Shown here: one piece after another, positions 15,943 through 30,244 of the stretch | Layout of the letters: every line of letters begins with the position of its first letter | How positions within the stretch are numbered: position 1 is the first letter of the stretch | IMG/VR virus record: IMGVR_UViG_3300035534_000081 | Span: 1-37,335 of that record | Strand: one strand, 5' to 3' | Source: a virus | Taxonomy: Duplodnaviria; Caudoviricetes | DNA length: 37,335 bases | Made by a program: the position numbers and the translations under genes | Notes under the pieces: model-generated | Told to the model about the DNA's origin: nothing | The model's input: only the letters and a program-made list of their open reading frames with translations | Database searches by the model: none

Positions 15943-17256
15943 TTACCACCCCCAACTCTCTTTATCTCCATGCTTAAAGTACATAGCTATGTTATCAATG
16001 CAGTCATCATGCTTGTTTTCTTTAGGGTCCTTGTTATAATCCATTACCTCAGTTATAAAATCATTATAATCTTCATCTCCATCGTCACGAACAAAAAAAT
16101 CAACTCTCATTCTACCGGATTGACTAAGAATTTTTTCATGTTTATTTTCTGTTGATCTAAACTTGCTGACCTTGATTTTCTTTCTGGTTTTTTTCTTAAG
16201 CTCACTTTCATAATAAAGCCCTTCGTGATTTTCCTCTACTCTAACATTTTGAGGCTCAAATTTATTAATCATGCTGGCCATAATTGGTATGACAATATTA
16301 GCATCACGATCATCTTTATAAGCTGACACTAGGTAATGATGTTCTTCATCATACTTAGCATATATTCCAAGAGTGGCACTATCTTCACCGCTGGAAGCAG
16401 TATCGACTATTGCAGTTAATTTTGCTGCTTGACTTAGTTCTAATTTTGATAGACTGAATTTACTTAGCTCTTTAAGCAGCGTCCCTTCAGGCTTAACAAA
16501 CTTACCCTCAGCAAGCATCTTGTATAAATCTGGGTCACTATGCTTTAATTCTTCGATGGCTGCTATCTGCTGCAGAGTTAGATATCTATTATCTTTGTAA
16601 GTGGTAACTATAACCATACAGGTAGTAACTACTTCCTGATCACCAACTTCAACCACTATATCTTTAGTAAATACTTTTGGCCTTCCATCATCAAAGTACT
16701 CAAAAACTTGATCGGGTTTCTGCTTAAAAAAATAATTGTTTATAAATCCATCTTGATTGATAGGATTCATTGTAAGGAATAACTTTCTATCTTGAGGGTT
16801 ACCACCCCGCAGCTGCATCTGTAAAGCTTTAAACTGTTCATAGGTAATATTTTGAGCCTCTTCATACCAGGCTGATGTTATTCCATTTAAAGATTTGACT
16901 CTTTTCTGCTGCTTTTTTGAGTGATAGCCTTTAAATAAAACAGAATTACCTGTAGCTTTATGCACTATCCTTGGAGGTTGTTTTGTATCATGAAAGATGC
17001 TGCTATAACCAAACTCTTCTATTCTGTCGATTATATTGGTCTTAACACCTTCGTTGATATTTGTTTCAACATCCTCAACCACCAAAAACTTATAATCATC
17101 AGCATTATTGAGCATCATTGTTGAATACTGTCCCATAAAGTGAGTTTTACCTGAATTACGACCACCAACTAAAATATAGACTGGATAATCAGTATCTAAA
17201 ACATAATCATAGTAAATAGGCAGTATCTCAATATTTTTAACTTTTTTATCCGCCAT
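15943..17256 (-). CDS. terL: Terminase large subunit (PBSX/SPP1-like, probably headful packaging)
   Basis: Walker A GGRNSGKT, Walker B AWYEEA, LTMNP, nuclease motifs IVD and HDDCID. Confidence 0.95.
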   Translation of the reverse strand: MADKKVKNIEILPIYYDYVLDTDYPVYILVGGRNSGKTHFMGQYSTMMLNNADDYKFLVVEDVETNINEGVKTNIIDRIEEFGYSSIFHDTKQPPRIVHKATGNSVLFKGYHSKKQQKRVKSLNGITSAWYEEAQNITYEQFKALQMQLRGGNPQDRKLFLTMNPINQDGFINNYFFKQKPDQVFEYFDDGRPKVFTKDIVVEVGDQEVVTTCMVIVTTYKDNRYLTLQQIAAIEELKHSDPDLYKMLAEGKFVKPEGTLLKELSKFSLSKLELSQAAKLTAIVDTASSGEDSATLGIYAKYDEEHHYLVSAYKDDRDANIVIPIMASMINKFEPQNVRVEENHEGLYYESELKKKTRKKIKVSKFRSTENKHEKILSQSGRMRVDFFVRDDGDEDYNDFITEVMDYNKDPKENKHDDCIDNIAMYFKHGDKESWGW

Positions 17257-17809
17257 TTTCTTTTCCTCTAACTAGATTGATGGTTGGCAGCTCATTAATT
17301 TCTAATTCTTTTTTGTCAACAAATATAGCATATCTTTTACCAAGCAGTTCGGCAGCTTTTGTTCTTTCTCTTATTTTGGGAGGTTGTCTTATCTCTCTTT
17401 CTTGGCCACGGTCATCAAAAAAGATATCAACTTCATCTTTTTCTCCCCTCATTACTTCTGTAAGATATTCTAAAACTTCATCCTGAGTTGCTATTCTTGC
17501 CGCTTCTTTTTCTTTGAGCCTTTTTTCTATATATTTTTTAATGTGAGGTTTAGTCAAGTTTTCATGACCAATCTCTTTTGCGCTATTTTTACTATAGCCA
17601 GCTTTAATTGCTGCATCAGTTGCGTTTAGAGATATAATATACTCATCAGCAAAAGCTTTTTGTTTTTCAGTTAAATCTAAATCATTATTTTTTTCAACTG
17701 GATGTTGCCAGCATCTCCACTCTTTTGGAGCTTGTTCATCTTCAAATTCTTTTTCTCTGGTGCATCTACTTCCATCACTTTTTAGACCAATACATCTTAA
17801 TTTCTTCAC
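17246..17809 (-). CDS. terS: Terminase small subunit with N-terminal Cys/His zinc-finger
   Basis: LTEKQKAFADEY..LNATDAAIKAGYS and R.KAAELLGK motifs; start likely GTG 17809 after AGGAGGTG. Confidence 0.92.
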   Translation of the reverse strand: MKKLRCIGLKSDGSRCTREKEFEDEQAPKEWRCWQHPVEKNNDLDLTEKQKAFADEYIISLNATDAAIKAGYSKNSAKEIGHENLTKPHIKKYIEKRLKEKEAARIATQDEVLEYLTEVMRGEKDEVDIFFDDRGQEREIRQPPKIRERTKAAELLGKRYAIFVDKKELEINELPTINLVRGKENGG

Positions 17810-17924
17810 TGACAACACCTCCTATTACTTATTAGTTAATATATTAATATAAATATATATAAGCTCTATAGTTATATATAAACATAACTTCAAACTTTCA
17901 AAAAAACCCACAAAAAAAGTTTTC

Positions 17925-18101
17925 TTAAATCACTGTGCCGATTATCTTTTTTTTGCCGTTTACTTTTGTGTAAATGTGATAACATTGTTTGTCAAATTCA
18001 TTAAAACTGTGAATATCCAACCAACCCTTTCTATAACCTTGAACGTGATCAGTAAAGTTTTTCTGCAAATACTGCTCAATTCTATCTGGATAACGAAACA
18101 T
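17925..18101 (-). CDS. Small hypothetical protein (58 aa), not in the ORF track
   Basis: GGAG RBS, then MFRYPDRIEQYLQKNF...KKIIGTVI*. Confidence 0.6.
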   Translation of the reverse strand: MFRYPDRIEQYLQKNFTDHVQGYRKGWLDIHSFNEFDKQCYHIYTKVNGKKKIIGTVI

Positions 18102-18207
18102 CTTATCAACTCCAAAATATATTTTAAAGGGCAGCCTTTATACGGAGAGTAATCGCTTTTGCTGCACTCAAACAGCTGTGAGATTATTTCCACTGCCCTT
18201 TGTTTAA

Positions 18208-18372
18208 ATAATTAAAGCCCTGGAATCTCAACCAGGGCAATCGAAAGGAGGTGAACATTAATGAAAAAACTGGCTTACCAGTTAATTGCATAATAATAGC
18301 CCCAGCTCTGGATAACTGGGGCTTATAATAGGAGTGAATAATTGAAAAAGCTTTTTAGATTTATTTCCACAC
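18208..18372 (-). ncRNA. Candidate structured RNA with two anti-Shine-Dalgarno modules
   Basis: Hairpins at ~18298-18323, ~18268-18283 and ~18217-18238, separated by UUUUUCA..UUCAC(C)UCCU tracts; TGTGATATTCT extended -10-like element just upstream. Confidence 0.45.
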
Positions 18373-18416
18373 TATTAGAATATCACATTATAACAATAAT
18401 TCTACTCGCAGAGTAA

Positions 18417-18929
18417 TCATTTTGTGCTCATTTCCTTCTCAATCTCACAAAATCCAACCTTTTTTAGCTTATTTAGCACTTCAAGCTTCATTCTTTGGAT
18501 TGTTGGTATCGAATATTCTCTGTAATCTTCCATAACCTTTCCTTTTGAATTTCTAAACATCTTTTTTTCATTTTCTATCATTCTGAAAACTATTTCTTTA
18601 TCACTAAAATCTTGAAAATATTTTAATTCCACTAACTTATATTGTCTCCAGGTCAAACAATTCAATGCACTTTCTATTTTTTCCTTTTCTAAAATCAATT
18701 CATAAACTTCCGGATATTTATCAAGTTTACTCTGGATAAATGTTTCAACTTCAGAGCTTATGTTATTTGTCTTACCTCCGGGAATTTGTGAGTAGTCAAC
18801 AGCTTTAGCTGCATAATCTTCTTCAGAAGCTATTTGATTTTTTCTAATTTTAATTTTAGACTTAAGCAAAGGATAATTCCTTAATTGGTTTTCTATCCAC
18901 TCTTTAATTTCTTGATCCATCACCCGCAA
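18417..18929 (-). CDS. Late transcriptional activator (RinA/ArpU-like)
   Basis: IENQLRNYP and IESALNCL..RQYKLVELKYF sigma-region-4-like motifs; last early gene before terS. Confidence 0.8.
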   Translation of the reverse strand: MRVMDQEIKEWIENQLRNYPLLKSKIKIRKNQIASEEDYAAKAVDYSQIPGGKTNNISSEVETFIQSKLDKYPEVYELILEKEKIESALNCLTWRQYKLVELKYFQDFSDKEIVFRMIENEKKMFRNSKGKVMEDYREYSIPTIQRMKLEVLNKLKKVGFCEIEKEMSTK

Positions 18930-19550: not shown

Positions 19551-20747
19551 CTAATCATCTTTTAGGTGTTTTGTGGTCCAATGTCTGCAATTAACTACTC
19601 TATTTATTGTGCTTGTTGATAAATTATATTTATTTCCTAATAAATTGTAGTTAGTTTCCAAGTTTTTGTATTCATTATAAATTTTAATGGCTGTTTTTTT
19701 ATCAAGTTTGCTTTTCGGGTTTTTTAGACCTTTAGCACCACCAACTTTACTAATTGGTTCTAAATTTTTTGTGAATTTATGTTTTGCTCTAGTAATCGTA
19801 TTTATTACTTGAATTGAAAAATCATACTCTTTAGCTAAATCTTTTAATTTAATATTATTATTTTTATATTTATTATAAATTCCCAACGCTTGTTTTTTAG
19901 TGACATTTTTTTCAATAGGTTTTTTGCTTTTAGTAGTCCAGTGTTGTCCTCTTGCAATATTACCTATACTGCTTTCCGAAACATCATATTTTTTAGCTAA
20001 TTCTTTATATGATATATTATTTTCTTTGTACTCTTTGAAAATTTCAACACCTGTCTTTTTATCAATTTTTGAAGCGGGATTTTTGGAGCCGCGCAGATAT
20101 TTGTTGGTTTTTATAATTGGTTCCAGGTGTTCAGTGGCAAAATGTTCGCCTCTTGTTATTCTTTGTACAGTGTCATAGCTAATATTGTTTTTTTCTGCCA
20201 GCTTAGATTTTGAGATATTTTTATTTCTATATAAATAATATATTTCTATAGCTTTATTTTTGCTAATACTATTCCAATTTTTTTCACCTTCTAATTTGGA
20301 TTTCATTCTTTTTTTAGCATCTTTTGGCATTTTGTTTCCTTTGTTAGCTTTGCTAATTTTTTCTTTAGTTTTTTTAGTATGTTGTTTTCCATAGAAATGA
20401 TTTTTTTCTCCTTTATATTTACCCTTTTTGCTTTCGCTCATTCTTTTCCTAACTTCTTTTGACCAATGTTTATTATAATTTGGGTGGTTTTCTCCAGCAA
20501 GCCCTAAAACTCCATTTTCTACCATTTCTATAGCATTTTCTTTTAATTGCGAGCGAGTGTTGTTTGTAAAACATTCAGCATTTCCGTTTTTACATGGAGG
20601 CCGAGTTTCTATTCCGTATCTTTTCATGTAAGTATATACTGTAGATTTAGCGCATCCGATTTTTTTAGCAATTGTTGGAGCTCCTAATTCAGTGCCCGGC
20701 TCACCCCAATACATCTCTTCTAATTCTTCTTTGCTTATCAATGCCAT
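19551..20747 (-). CDS. Multi-module DNA-binding protein: HTH + NUMOD3 motifs + four tandem homing-endonuclease-type HTH repeats, no visible nuclease domain
   Basis: GENHPNYNKHWS.E.RKRMSES and GEKNHFYGKQHT..TKEKIS (NUMOD3); four copies of K..A.EI..Y......LA.KY..S...I..I.RG.HW. Confidence 0.8.
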   Translation of the reverse strand: MALISKEELEEMYWGEPGTELGAPTIAKKIGCAKSTVYTYMKRYGIETRPPCKNGNAECFTNNTRSQLKENAIEMVENGVLGLAGENHPNYNKHWSKEVRKRMSESKKGKYKGEKNHFYGKQHTKKTKEKISKANKGNKMPKDAKKRMKSKLEGEKNWNSISKNKAIEIYYLYRNKNISKSKLAEKNNISYDTVQRITRGEHFATEHLEPIIKTNKYLRGSKNPASKIDKKTGVEIFKEYKENNISYKELAKKYDVSESSIGNIARGQHWTTKSKKPIEKNVTKKQALGIYNKYKNNNIKLKDLAKEYDFSIQVINTITRAKHKFTKNLEPISKVGGAKGLKNPKSKLDKKTAIKIYNEYKNLETNYNLLGNKYNLSTSTINRVVNCRHWTTKHLKDD

Positions 20748-29719: not shown

Positions 29720-30244
29720 TCATGCTCTCGATAAGTAACCACGGCTATAGTATTTATCAGTACAGCGCTTATTTCTCTTTTCCAAGTCGGCCCCTAAGTC
29801 TTCTGATGCTACATCCAACATGTCACAAGCATGATTTGCATCCTCTATCTCATCAAGCATATGCTCAAATTTTTCTTGCTGATTTTCTGTCATTTCACTT
29901 TTAGAATTTACATTATGTGCAAAAGCTAAAACATCTTTGATACTCGTTATCGCCTCTTCAAATTCCTCGATAGCTTTGACTGCCGAGCGATAAAATTCAA
30001 TTTGAGCTTTGTCAAAAACTATATTTGCTGATGTCGTACCGTAAACCTTAATTCTTAAAATAGGATTCTGCAAATAGGAAACAAGCTTCCTTTTGATATG
30101 ATCAGGTATATTCAAATGTCCATTCATGTACTTAGAAAGAGTTGTTCTGTCAATATCAAGATACCTGGCAACTTGAGCCTGAGTTAATCCTTTCTTCTTC
30201 ATTCCTTCTCTGATAGCGTCTCCTAAAGTCCTCGATTGTCTCAT
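29720..30244 (-). CDS. XRE-family HTH transcriptional regulator
   Basis: GLTQAQVARYLDIDRTTLSKYMNG. Confidence 0.88.
   Translation of the reverse strand: MRQSRTLGDAIREGMKKKGLTQAQVARYLDIDRTTLSKYMNGHLNIPDHIKRKLVSYLQNPILRIKVYGTTSANIVFDKAQIEFYRSAVKAIEEFEEAITSIKDVLAFAHNVNSKSEMTENQQEKFEHMLDEIEDANHACDMLDVASEDLGADLEKRNKRCTDKYYSRGYLSRA

What the first reader, a model, noticed from the sequence alone, without database searches (positions are those of the whole stretch)
18208..18372. Tandem anti-Shine-Dalgarno structured RNA at the start of the late operon
Seen: on the transcribed (-) strand a module occurs twice: small hairpin - UUUUUCA..UUCAC(C)UCCU - GC-rich hairpin. Each single-stranded tract is the exact complement of a full initiation region: AAAGGAGGTGA-ACATTA-ATG AAA AAA CTG (18244-18272) and ATAGGAGTGAATAA-TTG AAA AAG CTT (18328-18353). 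Both read 'SD + start + KKL'. On + they open only 10- and 24-codon frames. The terS start (TAATAGGAGGTG...GTG AAG AAA TTA, MKKL) shares TAATAGGAG with one module. Inference: a late-induced sRNA array that occludes ribosome-binding sites, either in cis (terS) or on host MKKL-type signal-peptide mRNAs such as surface/receptor proteins. The alternative is two antisense micropeptides. I do not recognise it as a described family.
Basis: partly seen in the sequence, partly recalled or inferred. Interest (0 to 1): 0.7.

Follow-up and report, generated by a model that had tools for sequence, protein, structure and literature searches.

The report
Anti-ribosome-site RNA units behind late promoter
Just behind the predicted late promoter of a Halanaerobium-type prophage lie two short hairpin-ended units that each carry the mirror image of a ribosome-binding site, and because related phages keep one to three such units there, they are likely small RNAs that would block translation of other messages, although no transcript or target has been shown.

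Summary
The two modules are real. They follow a RinA/ArpU-like (Ltr) gene, its 11-bp-spaced repeats and a conserved -10/+1 box. All five related lineages (Ltr 49-89% identical; one named Halanaerobium congolense) keep 1-3 units of U-rich stretch, CCUCCU and terminator-like hairpin. Anti-SD precedes 6 of 8 distinct leader hairpins but 1 of 15 other intergenic terminators. U.G wobbles and U-tails favour the late strand. The + strand micro-ORFs are not conserved, and the anti-start tract is variable and partly just the 3' arm of a 5' hairpin. No target stands out: terS gives p 0.44 and 0.013 against shuffles. Tracts of relatives favour early-gene sites, the window's do not. Host targets and expression could not be tested. 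Best reading: csRNA-like anti-RBS RNAs released by leaky termination of the late transcript, placed like StxS and Listeria RliG but matching no Rfam family. The scan has noted similar late anti-SD RNA candidates on other phages. Plain terminators remain a strong rival.

The parts
18417..18920 (-). Ltr-type (RinA/ArpU-like) late transcription activator gene
   Evidence: PHROG 36 and 248 hits; weak ArpU/RinA hits below the curated cut-offs; a 57%-identical relative is named RinA-family, H. congolense
18402..18441 (-). four degenerate 7-nt repeats at 11-bp period, predicted Ltr binding site
   Evidence: positions; cleaner repeats at the same place in relatives; repeats distal to the ltr gene are the binding site in PMC3753634 (passages)
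18377..18387 (-). conserved extended -10-like box; predicted start about 18370 (a second TGnTATAAT at 18387-18395 is private to this phage)
   Evidence: box plus GTGGA(A/T)ATA present in 23 of 23 ltr-bearing loci examined, 9 distinct leaders; not reported by the sigma-70 scan; start site inferred
18290..18370 (-). unit 1: 5' GUGGAAAU, U-rich tract with anti-UUG, anti-SD (18330-18336), hairpin 18298-18323, U/A tail
   Evidence: homologous first unit in all relatives
18208..18290 (-). unit 2: small hairpin 18268-18283, UUUUUUCAU, anti-SD (18244-18253), hairpin 18217-18238, U tail
18261..18293 (+). 10-codon frame opposite unit 2; not conserved
18342..18416 (+). 24-codon TTG frame opposite unit 1 and the promoter; start codon not conserved
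18126..18201 (-). third structured element (long closing stem, CUCUCCGUAUAA), loosely homologous in the G015 lineage
   Evidence: z -3.2; alignment of 3 copies; no Rfam match
17925..18101 (-). 58-aa ORF of the leader, no family hit, with homologues in relatives
17246..17809 (-). terminase small subunit; candidate target of unit 2 only
   Evidence: PHROG 51; duplex -23.8 kcal/mol, nominal p 0.013
29720..30244 (-). early XRE-HTH gene ('QSRT'), candidate target
   Evidence: HTH_3; rank 6/56 for unit 2; orthologue ranks 1/58 and 2/61 for the G013 and G014 tracts

Best explanation
The two modules are conserved anti-Shine-Dalgarno-plus-hairpin units behind a predicted Ltr-dependent late promoter, and they likely make short RNAs (about 80 and 160 nt) that would pair with ribosome-binding sites of other mRNAs and lower their translation. 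Shown: the units, their position, their conservation, their strand and the enrichment of the anti-SD. Inferred: transcription starts near 18370; each hairpin with its imperfect U-tail terminates only part of the polymerases, so short RNAs pile up while the rest read on into terS. The exposed CCUCCU core gives broad specificity and the variable U-rich flank tunes it. My leading guess for targets is the phage's own early-gene messages (an early-to-late hand-over, or damping of leaky early expression in the lysogen), with terS-type start regions second. Both are predictions.
For: Anti-SD unit present in all 5 lineages (first unit in 4 of 5; second unit in the G015 lineage). No lineage was selected on the motif: they came from terS, Ltr or promoter-box searches. 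The unit occurs 1-3 times per leader, in L037 next to a tRNA-Ser. Anti-SD lies before 8 of 10 leader hairpins, 1 of 25 other intergenic hairpins and 0 of 22 hairpins inside genes; after removing near-duplicates 6 of 8 against 1 of 15, Fisher p 0.002. Stem: 92.5% of 80 cells paired, 4 of 8 pairs with two-sided change. The 3' 45 nt fold at least 2 kcal/mol better on the late strand in 8 of 11 Halanaerobium-type units and about equally in 3. The model finds no copy outside the leaders at E<0.4 in 242 kb. Tracts of G013, G014 and G015 unit 2 pair better with early than with late start regions (p 0.002, 0.007, 0.003; 16S-like control 0.052, 0.037, 0.52). Precedents: csRNA architecture and comC repression (PMC3091779, PMC4387999, passages); StxS made by termination behind a late promoter (PMC7547250, abstract); RliG maps directly behind the A118 ArpU gene and is expressed in lysogeny (PMC7397523, passages).
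Against: No transcript or target is shown. The window's own tracts show no early/late bias (p 0.42, 0.18), nor do G015 unit 3 or G016, and their best phage matches are no better than shuffles. G013, G014 and G016 share one unit, so the early-gene signal rests on two lineages and was tested post hoc. In relatives the first bases of CCUCC close a 5' hairpin with GUGGAAAU, so part of the motif may be kept for structure (anti-SD 0.4-0.6 unpaired in L031, L046, L037). The first unit of the G015 lineage lacks the anti-SD. Of 21 cultured Firmicutes phage leaders read by eye, only two C. difficile ones had a comparable C-run before a terminator, and none scored with the model (best leader hit E 1.9). 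CCTCCT before a terminator hairpin also occurs in unrelated phages, about 21 of 63 distinct loci right after a stop codon (rough ORF calls).
Confidence: 0.45

Rival explanations
1. Ordinary late-leader terminators or attenuators that hold back basal late transcription; the C-rich stretch is kept as the 3' arm of a 5' hairpin or as a pause element and pairs with nothing in trans.
For: A terminator in the ltr-terS interval is known (PMC3152322, PMC3753634, passages). Promoter-then-terminator without anti-SD is seen in TPDSL_ph2, OlisA2, Javan583, PK5.2 and phiCTC2A. GUGGAAAU pairs with UUUCC/UUUCCAU in relatives. One first unit lacks the motif.
Against: Downstream units without the 5' GUGGAAAU (window unit 2, L037 units 2 and 3) still carry CCUCC, 0.98 unpaired in window unit 2. 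Other terminators of the same genomes almost never do.
Confidence: 0.3
2. Cis-acting brake: in read-through transcripts the tracts fold onto the start region of terS or the first late gene and delay terminase synthesis.
For: terS ranks 4/56 and 2/56 in the window. L037 unit 2 fits terS-type start regions (own p 0.04; window terS rank 1/276). The G017 tract fits the HNH gene before terS of G015 at -34 kcal/mol, 0/25 null.
Against: Unit 1 p 0.44. G013 and G014 tracts do not fit their own terS. The two strongest fits are to genes of other phages, and shuffling removes the anti-start spacing, which inflates such p values. The distance is over 400 nt.
Confidence: 0.1
3. The + strand is the functional one: two micropeptides, or relics of terminator-RBS-gene junctions of lost opposite-strand genes.
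For: Canonical SD and start in both window units and in L049. The reverse of an ordinary terminator-RBS junction looks the same (five such cases). Three lineages keep the same frame across the promoter.
Against: ATG or TTG opposite only 4 of 12 units examined, ATA in 5, none in 3; lengths 3-24 codons; no shared peptide beyond what the promoter DNA imposes. U-tails and wobbles are on the late strand. + promoter matches are at chance level.
Confidence: 0.08
4. Decoy of the 16S rRNA 3' end for a protein or nuclease that recognises the anti-SD (speculative; rests on recalled knowledge).
For: Unit 2 carries UCACCUCCUUU, identical to the recalled Firmicutes 16S 3' end (sequence).
Against: Bases 5' of CCUCC vary between units (UUUU, AUUA, GUAU, UUCA), and the hairpin lies 3' of the motif rather than 5' as helix 45 does (recalled).
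Confidence: 0.05

Closest known systems
csRNAs (cia-dependent small RNAs) of Streptococcus (PMC3091779, PMC4387999; passages read)
   Same: 5' stem-loop, unpaired anti-SD and anti-start stretch, terminator stem-loop; 60-160 nt; several copies
   Different: phage-borne, behind Ltr repeats; anti-start not constant; no Rfam match; repression untested
StxS of Stx phages (PMC7547250; abstract and outline read)
   Same: short RNA expected from termination just behind a phage late promoter, co-opted as a base-pairing regulator
   Different: Q antiterminator, Hfq, RNase E and Proteobacteria there; Ltr-type regulator, tandem units and an anti-SD seed here
RliG / rli62 of Listeria phages (Rfam RF02415, RF01486; PMC7397523 passages)
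   Same: same slot, directly behind the ArpU gene on the late strand
   Different: no sequence match to the window; function unknown; no CCTCC run in the A118 leader
Betaproteobacteria toxic small RNA (Rfam RF02278)
   Same: short CUCCUC tract before a GC-rich terminator
   Different: only 20.8 bits against a cut-off of 50, E 3.1, on relatives L020 and L021; mechanism recalled, papers seen only as a listing
Ltr (RinA/ArpU) late promoters (PMC3152322, PMC3753634; passages read)
   Same: repeats directly distal to the activator gene; terminator in the interval
   Different: [quoted passage not shown]

Membership tests
csRNA | CiaR-dependent promoter | not tested
   No CiaR-box scan run. PMC3091779 says CiaRH is apparently limited to streptococci; relatives here are Halanaerobium prophages and the upstream element is Ltr-type repeats, so unlikely.
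csRNA | two stem-loops with an unpaired anti-SD between them | tested here: met
   Clear for unit 2, weak 5' stem for unit 1
csRNA | anti-start codon in the unpaired stretch (CAU in 53 of 61) | tested here: inconclusive
   Present in both window units; anti-ATG/TTG in 4 of 12 units, wobble UAU in 5, none in 3; partly paired
csRNA | sequence similarity to a curated family | tested here: not met
   No Rfam hit at gathering in the window; only sub-threshold hits at E up to 5 in six loci
csRNA | expressed, and represses targets by base pairing | not testable with these tools
   Needs RNA data and reporters
StxS-like late-leader sRNA | lies between the late promoter and its first terminator | tested here: inconclusive
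   Geometry fits but the promoter is only predicted
StxS-like late-leader sRNA | Q-type antitermination | not tested
   The regulator is Ltr-like; read-through mechanism unknown
RliG / rli62 | Rfam model match | tested here: not met
   Models hit A118 and PSA but not the window or its relatives
Betaproteobacteria toxic sRNA | Rfam gathering score 50 | tested here: not met
   20.8 bits on relatives
Ltr late promoter | 7-nt direct repeats just distal to the activator gene | tested here: met
   18402-18441, degenerate here, clear in relatives
Ltr late promoter | activator is a RinA/ArpU family member | tested here: inconclusive
   PHROG hits, but TIGR01636/01637 scores are below cut-off
Type I toxin-antitoxin or antisense micropeptide | conserved small ORF opposite the RNA | tested here: not met
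   Start codon, length and peptide not conserved

The most novel reading that the evidence does not exclude
Ltr-type temperate phages build a swappable array of anti-RBS RNAs into the late leader, in the slot that also takes tRNA genes. Each unit is tuned to a class of start regions, so that firing of the late promoter shuts down the phage's own early genes, and the lysogen's leaky copy silences the packaging genes of related incoming or co-resident phages. This would be an RNA-based early-to-late switch and phage-versus-phage weapon in Firmicutes.
Probability: 0.15. Interest if true: 0.8.

Novelty: new variant of a known kind. Interest (0 to 1): 0.5.

Why it matters
Ltr-dependent late leaders are treated as promoter plus terminator, and the one RNA known from that slot (RliG) has no assigned function. 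A compact, repeated unit with an exposed anti-SD gives a direct test of whether such leaders yield base-pairing regulators in Firmicutes phages, as StxS does in lambdoid phages. It also raises the question of how late transcription passes two or three terminators when the regulator is described as a plain activator.

Tried and rejected
Expression: no RNA holder listed; DNA contigs laid on the region showed no variants; neither bears on expression. DNA searches of cultured phages and plasmids found nothing meaningful. The genome-contig scan gave one distant locus in a 12-genome phylum that was uninformative, so no host chromosome was available for host targets or for asking whether the unit copies a host sRNA. 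A third tract/target pair for the QSRT gene was sought; L159 is a different phage from G015 (75% DNA identity) and has no leader. The broad pattern scan (88 loci, 63 distinct) mostly returned unrelated high-GC phages; only 4 distinct loci were Ltr leaders, and the printout was cut in the middle, so the classes come from the saved file. terS relatives L005 (no ltr gene upstream), L007 (contig ends), L014, L015 and distant L002 were left out of the leader counts; L014 has a promoter and terminator without anti-SD. Loci repeating the same contigs were also left out. The better pairing of window tracts with the 8 M-K-K genes among 281 called genes was not counted as evidence: it follows from the tract sequence. 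Literature searches with no description of this element: (open-access library only; supplements not read, and Supplementary Figures S2/S3 of PMC3152322 and PMC3753634 show where their terminators lie).

Full report
Setting. The window is a whole 37-kb temperate-phage record held in oil-field metagenome runs. The finding lies between an Ltr-type regulator gene (18417-18920) and terS. An Ltr protein 57% identical to it is named from Halanaerobium congolense, so the host is probably a Halanaerobium relative (inference).

Observation. Two such images were reached by 1 of 2000 shuffles, and the hairpins exceed chance. Two details fail: unit 1 has no stable small hairpin, and the anti-start stretch of unit 2 is about half paired.

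Relatives. Searches with terS, Ltr and the promoter box gave 23 ltr-bearing loci after repeats of the same contigs were dropped: 9 distinct leaders in five lineages with Ltr identities of 49-89%. All 23 have the same -10-like box and GTGGA(A/T)ATA start, preceded by 7-nt repeats at 11-bp period. These match the Ltr binding sites described in PMC3753634 (passages). The first unit carries CCUCCU in four lineages; the fifth (G015) has it in its second unit. L037 has three units followed by tRNA-Ser; G015 has three hairpin units around a tRNA-like fragment. The number of units is therefore variable and the slot also takes tRNA.

Which strand. On ten units the terminal stem is 92.5% paired with four two-sided changes (related sequences can beat this shuffle control without structure). 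Single changes are mostly U.A to U.G, which pair only on the late strand; 8 of 11 units fold at least 2 kcal/mol better there, and the U-tails are there. On the other strand ATG or TTG follows the SD in 4 of 12 units, ATA in 5 and nothing in 3, with no common peptide. In G015 unit 2 a hairpin separates the SD image from the ATG image by about 35 nt. The micropeptide reading is therefore unlikely.

Is the anti-SD more than a terminator's neighbour? In eight related sequences, terminator-like hairpins had CCTCC or CTCCT within 20 nt upstream in 8 of 10 leader cases, 1 of 25 other intergenic cases without an opposite gene start, and 0 of 22 inside genes. After removing near-duplicates the count is 6 of 8 against 1 of 15 (p 0.002). 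Against this, in relatives the first CC closes a 5' hairpin with GUGGAAAU, whose complement itself reads like an anti-start, so the anti-start of first units is not independent evidence. Units without that 5' end still keep the motif.

Targets. Against 276 distinct start regions from these phages, the window tracts' best matches are no better than those of 5'-shuffled tracts (13/25, 7/25). terS gives p 0.44 for unit 1 and a nominal 0.013 for unit 2; G013 and G014 tracts do not fit their own terS. An early XRE-HTH gene ranks 6/56 for window unit 2 and 1/58 and 2/61 for the G013 and G014 tracts, with a poor cross-fit of the window tract to the G013 copy (39/58), but this is two lineages, chosen after looking. 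Early start regions pair better than late ones for G013, G014 and G015 unit 2, but not for the window, G015 unit 3 or G016. One of 11 tracts (G017) has an outstanding fit, -34 kcal/mol, to the HNH gene before terS of another phage. These are leads. Host targets could not be tested.

Range. A covariance model of the ten units finds no copy outside the leaders in 242 kb (a + strand hit at E 0.008 overlaps the units themselves) and nothing significant in 20 cultured-phage loci. By eye, C. difficile phiMMP02, phiCD119 and phiCD27 share the start sequence and 5' hairpin, and the first two end their leaders with a C-run before a terminator; many other leaders have promoter and terminator only (21 leaders). 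CCTCCT before a terminator hairpin is also common in unrelated phages. The unit is thus clade-limited in sequence and generic in design.

Mechanism. Shown: position, conservation, strand and enrichment. Inferred: a start near 18370, partial termination at each imperfect U-tail, stable RNAs of about 80 and 160 nt, and pairing of the open CCUCCU with ribosome-binding sites. I put this at 0.45, plain terminators at 0.3, a cis brake on terS at 0.1, + strand coding or relics at 0.08 and a protein decoy at 0.05.

Known systems. It is built like streptococcal csRNAs (PMC3091779, PMC4387999; passages) and placed like StxS (PMC7547250; abstract) and Listeria RliG, which Rfam maps right behind the A118 ArpU gene and which is expressed in lysogeny, dispensable for virion production and of unknown function (PMC7397523; passages). 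It matches no Rfam family. Five searches and passages of one review (PMC12197685) showed no description of it. Earlier notes of this scan list similar late anti-SD RNA candidates in other phage groups, and one Firmicutes case judged mostly a by-product; none is on this sequence. These notes are leads, not support.

Verdict. A real, conserved late-leader RNA unit and probably a new variant of anti-RBS small RNA; function and target unproven. Interest 0.5.

Noticed in passing
window 18126-18201 (-); L036 2070-2142; L050 1248-1322: Third structured element behind unit 2 with a long closing stem and a shared CUCUCCGUAUAA stretch; no Rfam match.
   Followed up: partly
window 17925-18101 (-); L019 3771-3983; L037 about 1840-2010: 58-aa ORF without any family hit, with homologues in the leaders of three lineages.
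   Followed up: partly
L037 1732-1815; L036 about 1795-1870: tRNA-Ser(GCT) after three anti-SD units; a decayed tRNA-like piece between units in the G015 lineage.
   Followed up: partly
L031 about 2628-2660; L037 about 2020-2055; L023 about 1600-1635: G-rich GAGGGGG...ATTATAGAGGG element downstream of the units in most relatives, absent from the window; it could pair with the C-rich tracts.
   Followed up: no
window 17812-17822; G013 terS; L037 terS; G015 29656 gene: A shared GGTGTTGTCAG start-region motif heads terS or the neighbouring HNH gene in several lineages.
   Followed up: partly
G015 early versus late genes: GGAGGA-type ribosome-binding sites in 11 of 31 early but 2 of 27 late genes.
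   Followed up: partly
L162 3230-3270; L165; L181: C. difficile phage late leaders share the GTGGAAAT start and 5' hairpin with these Halanaerobium-type phages.
   Followed up: partly
L060, L065 (opposite the pattern match): Conserved 28-aa ORF with hairpin and SD beside a YafQ-like gene (family recalled, not tested): a case where this layout does look coding.
   Followed up: no
L056, L061, L062, L118 and about 20 more loci: Stand-alone CCTCCT-plus-terminator units without an evident ORF in unrelated phages.
   Followed up: no
window 19551-20747 (-): 398-aa protein with repeated HTH-like and endonuclease-like PHROG hits in the early region.
   Followed up: no
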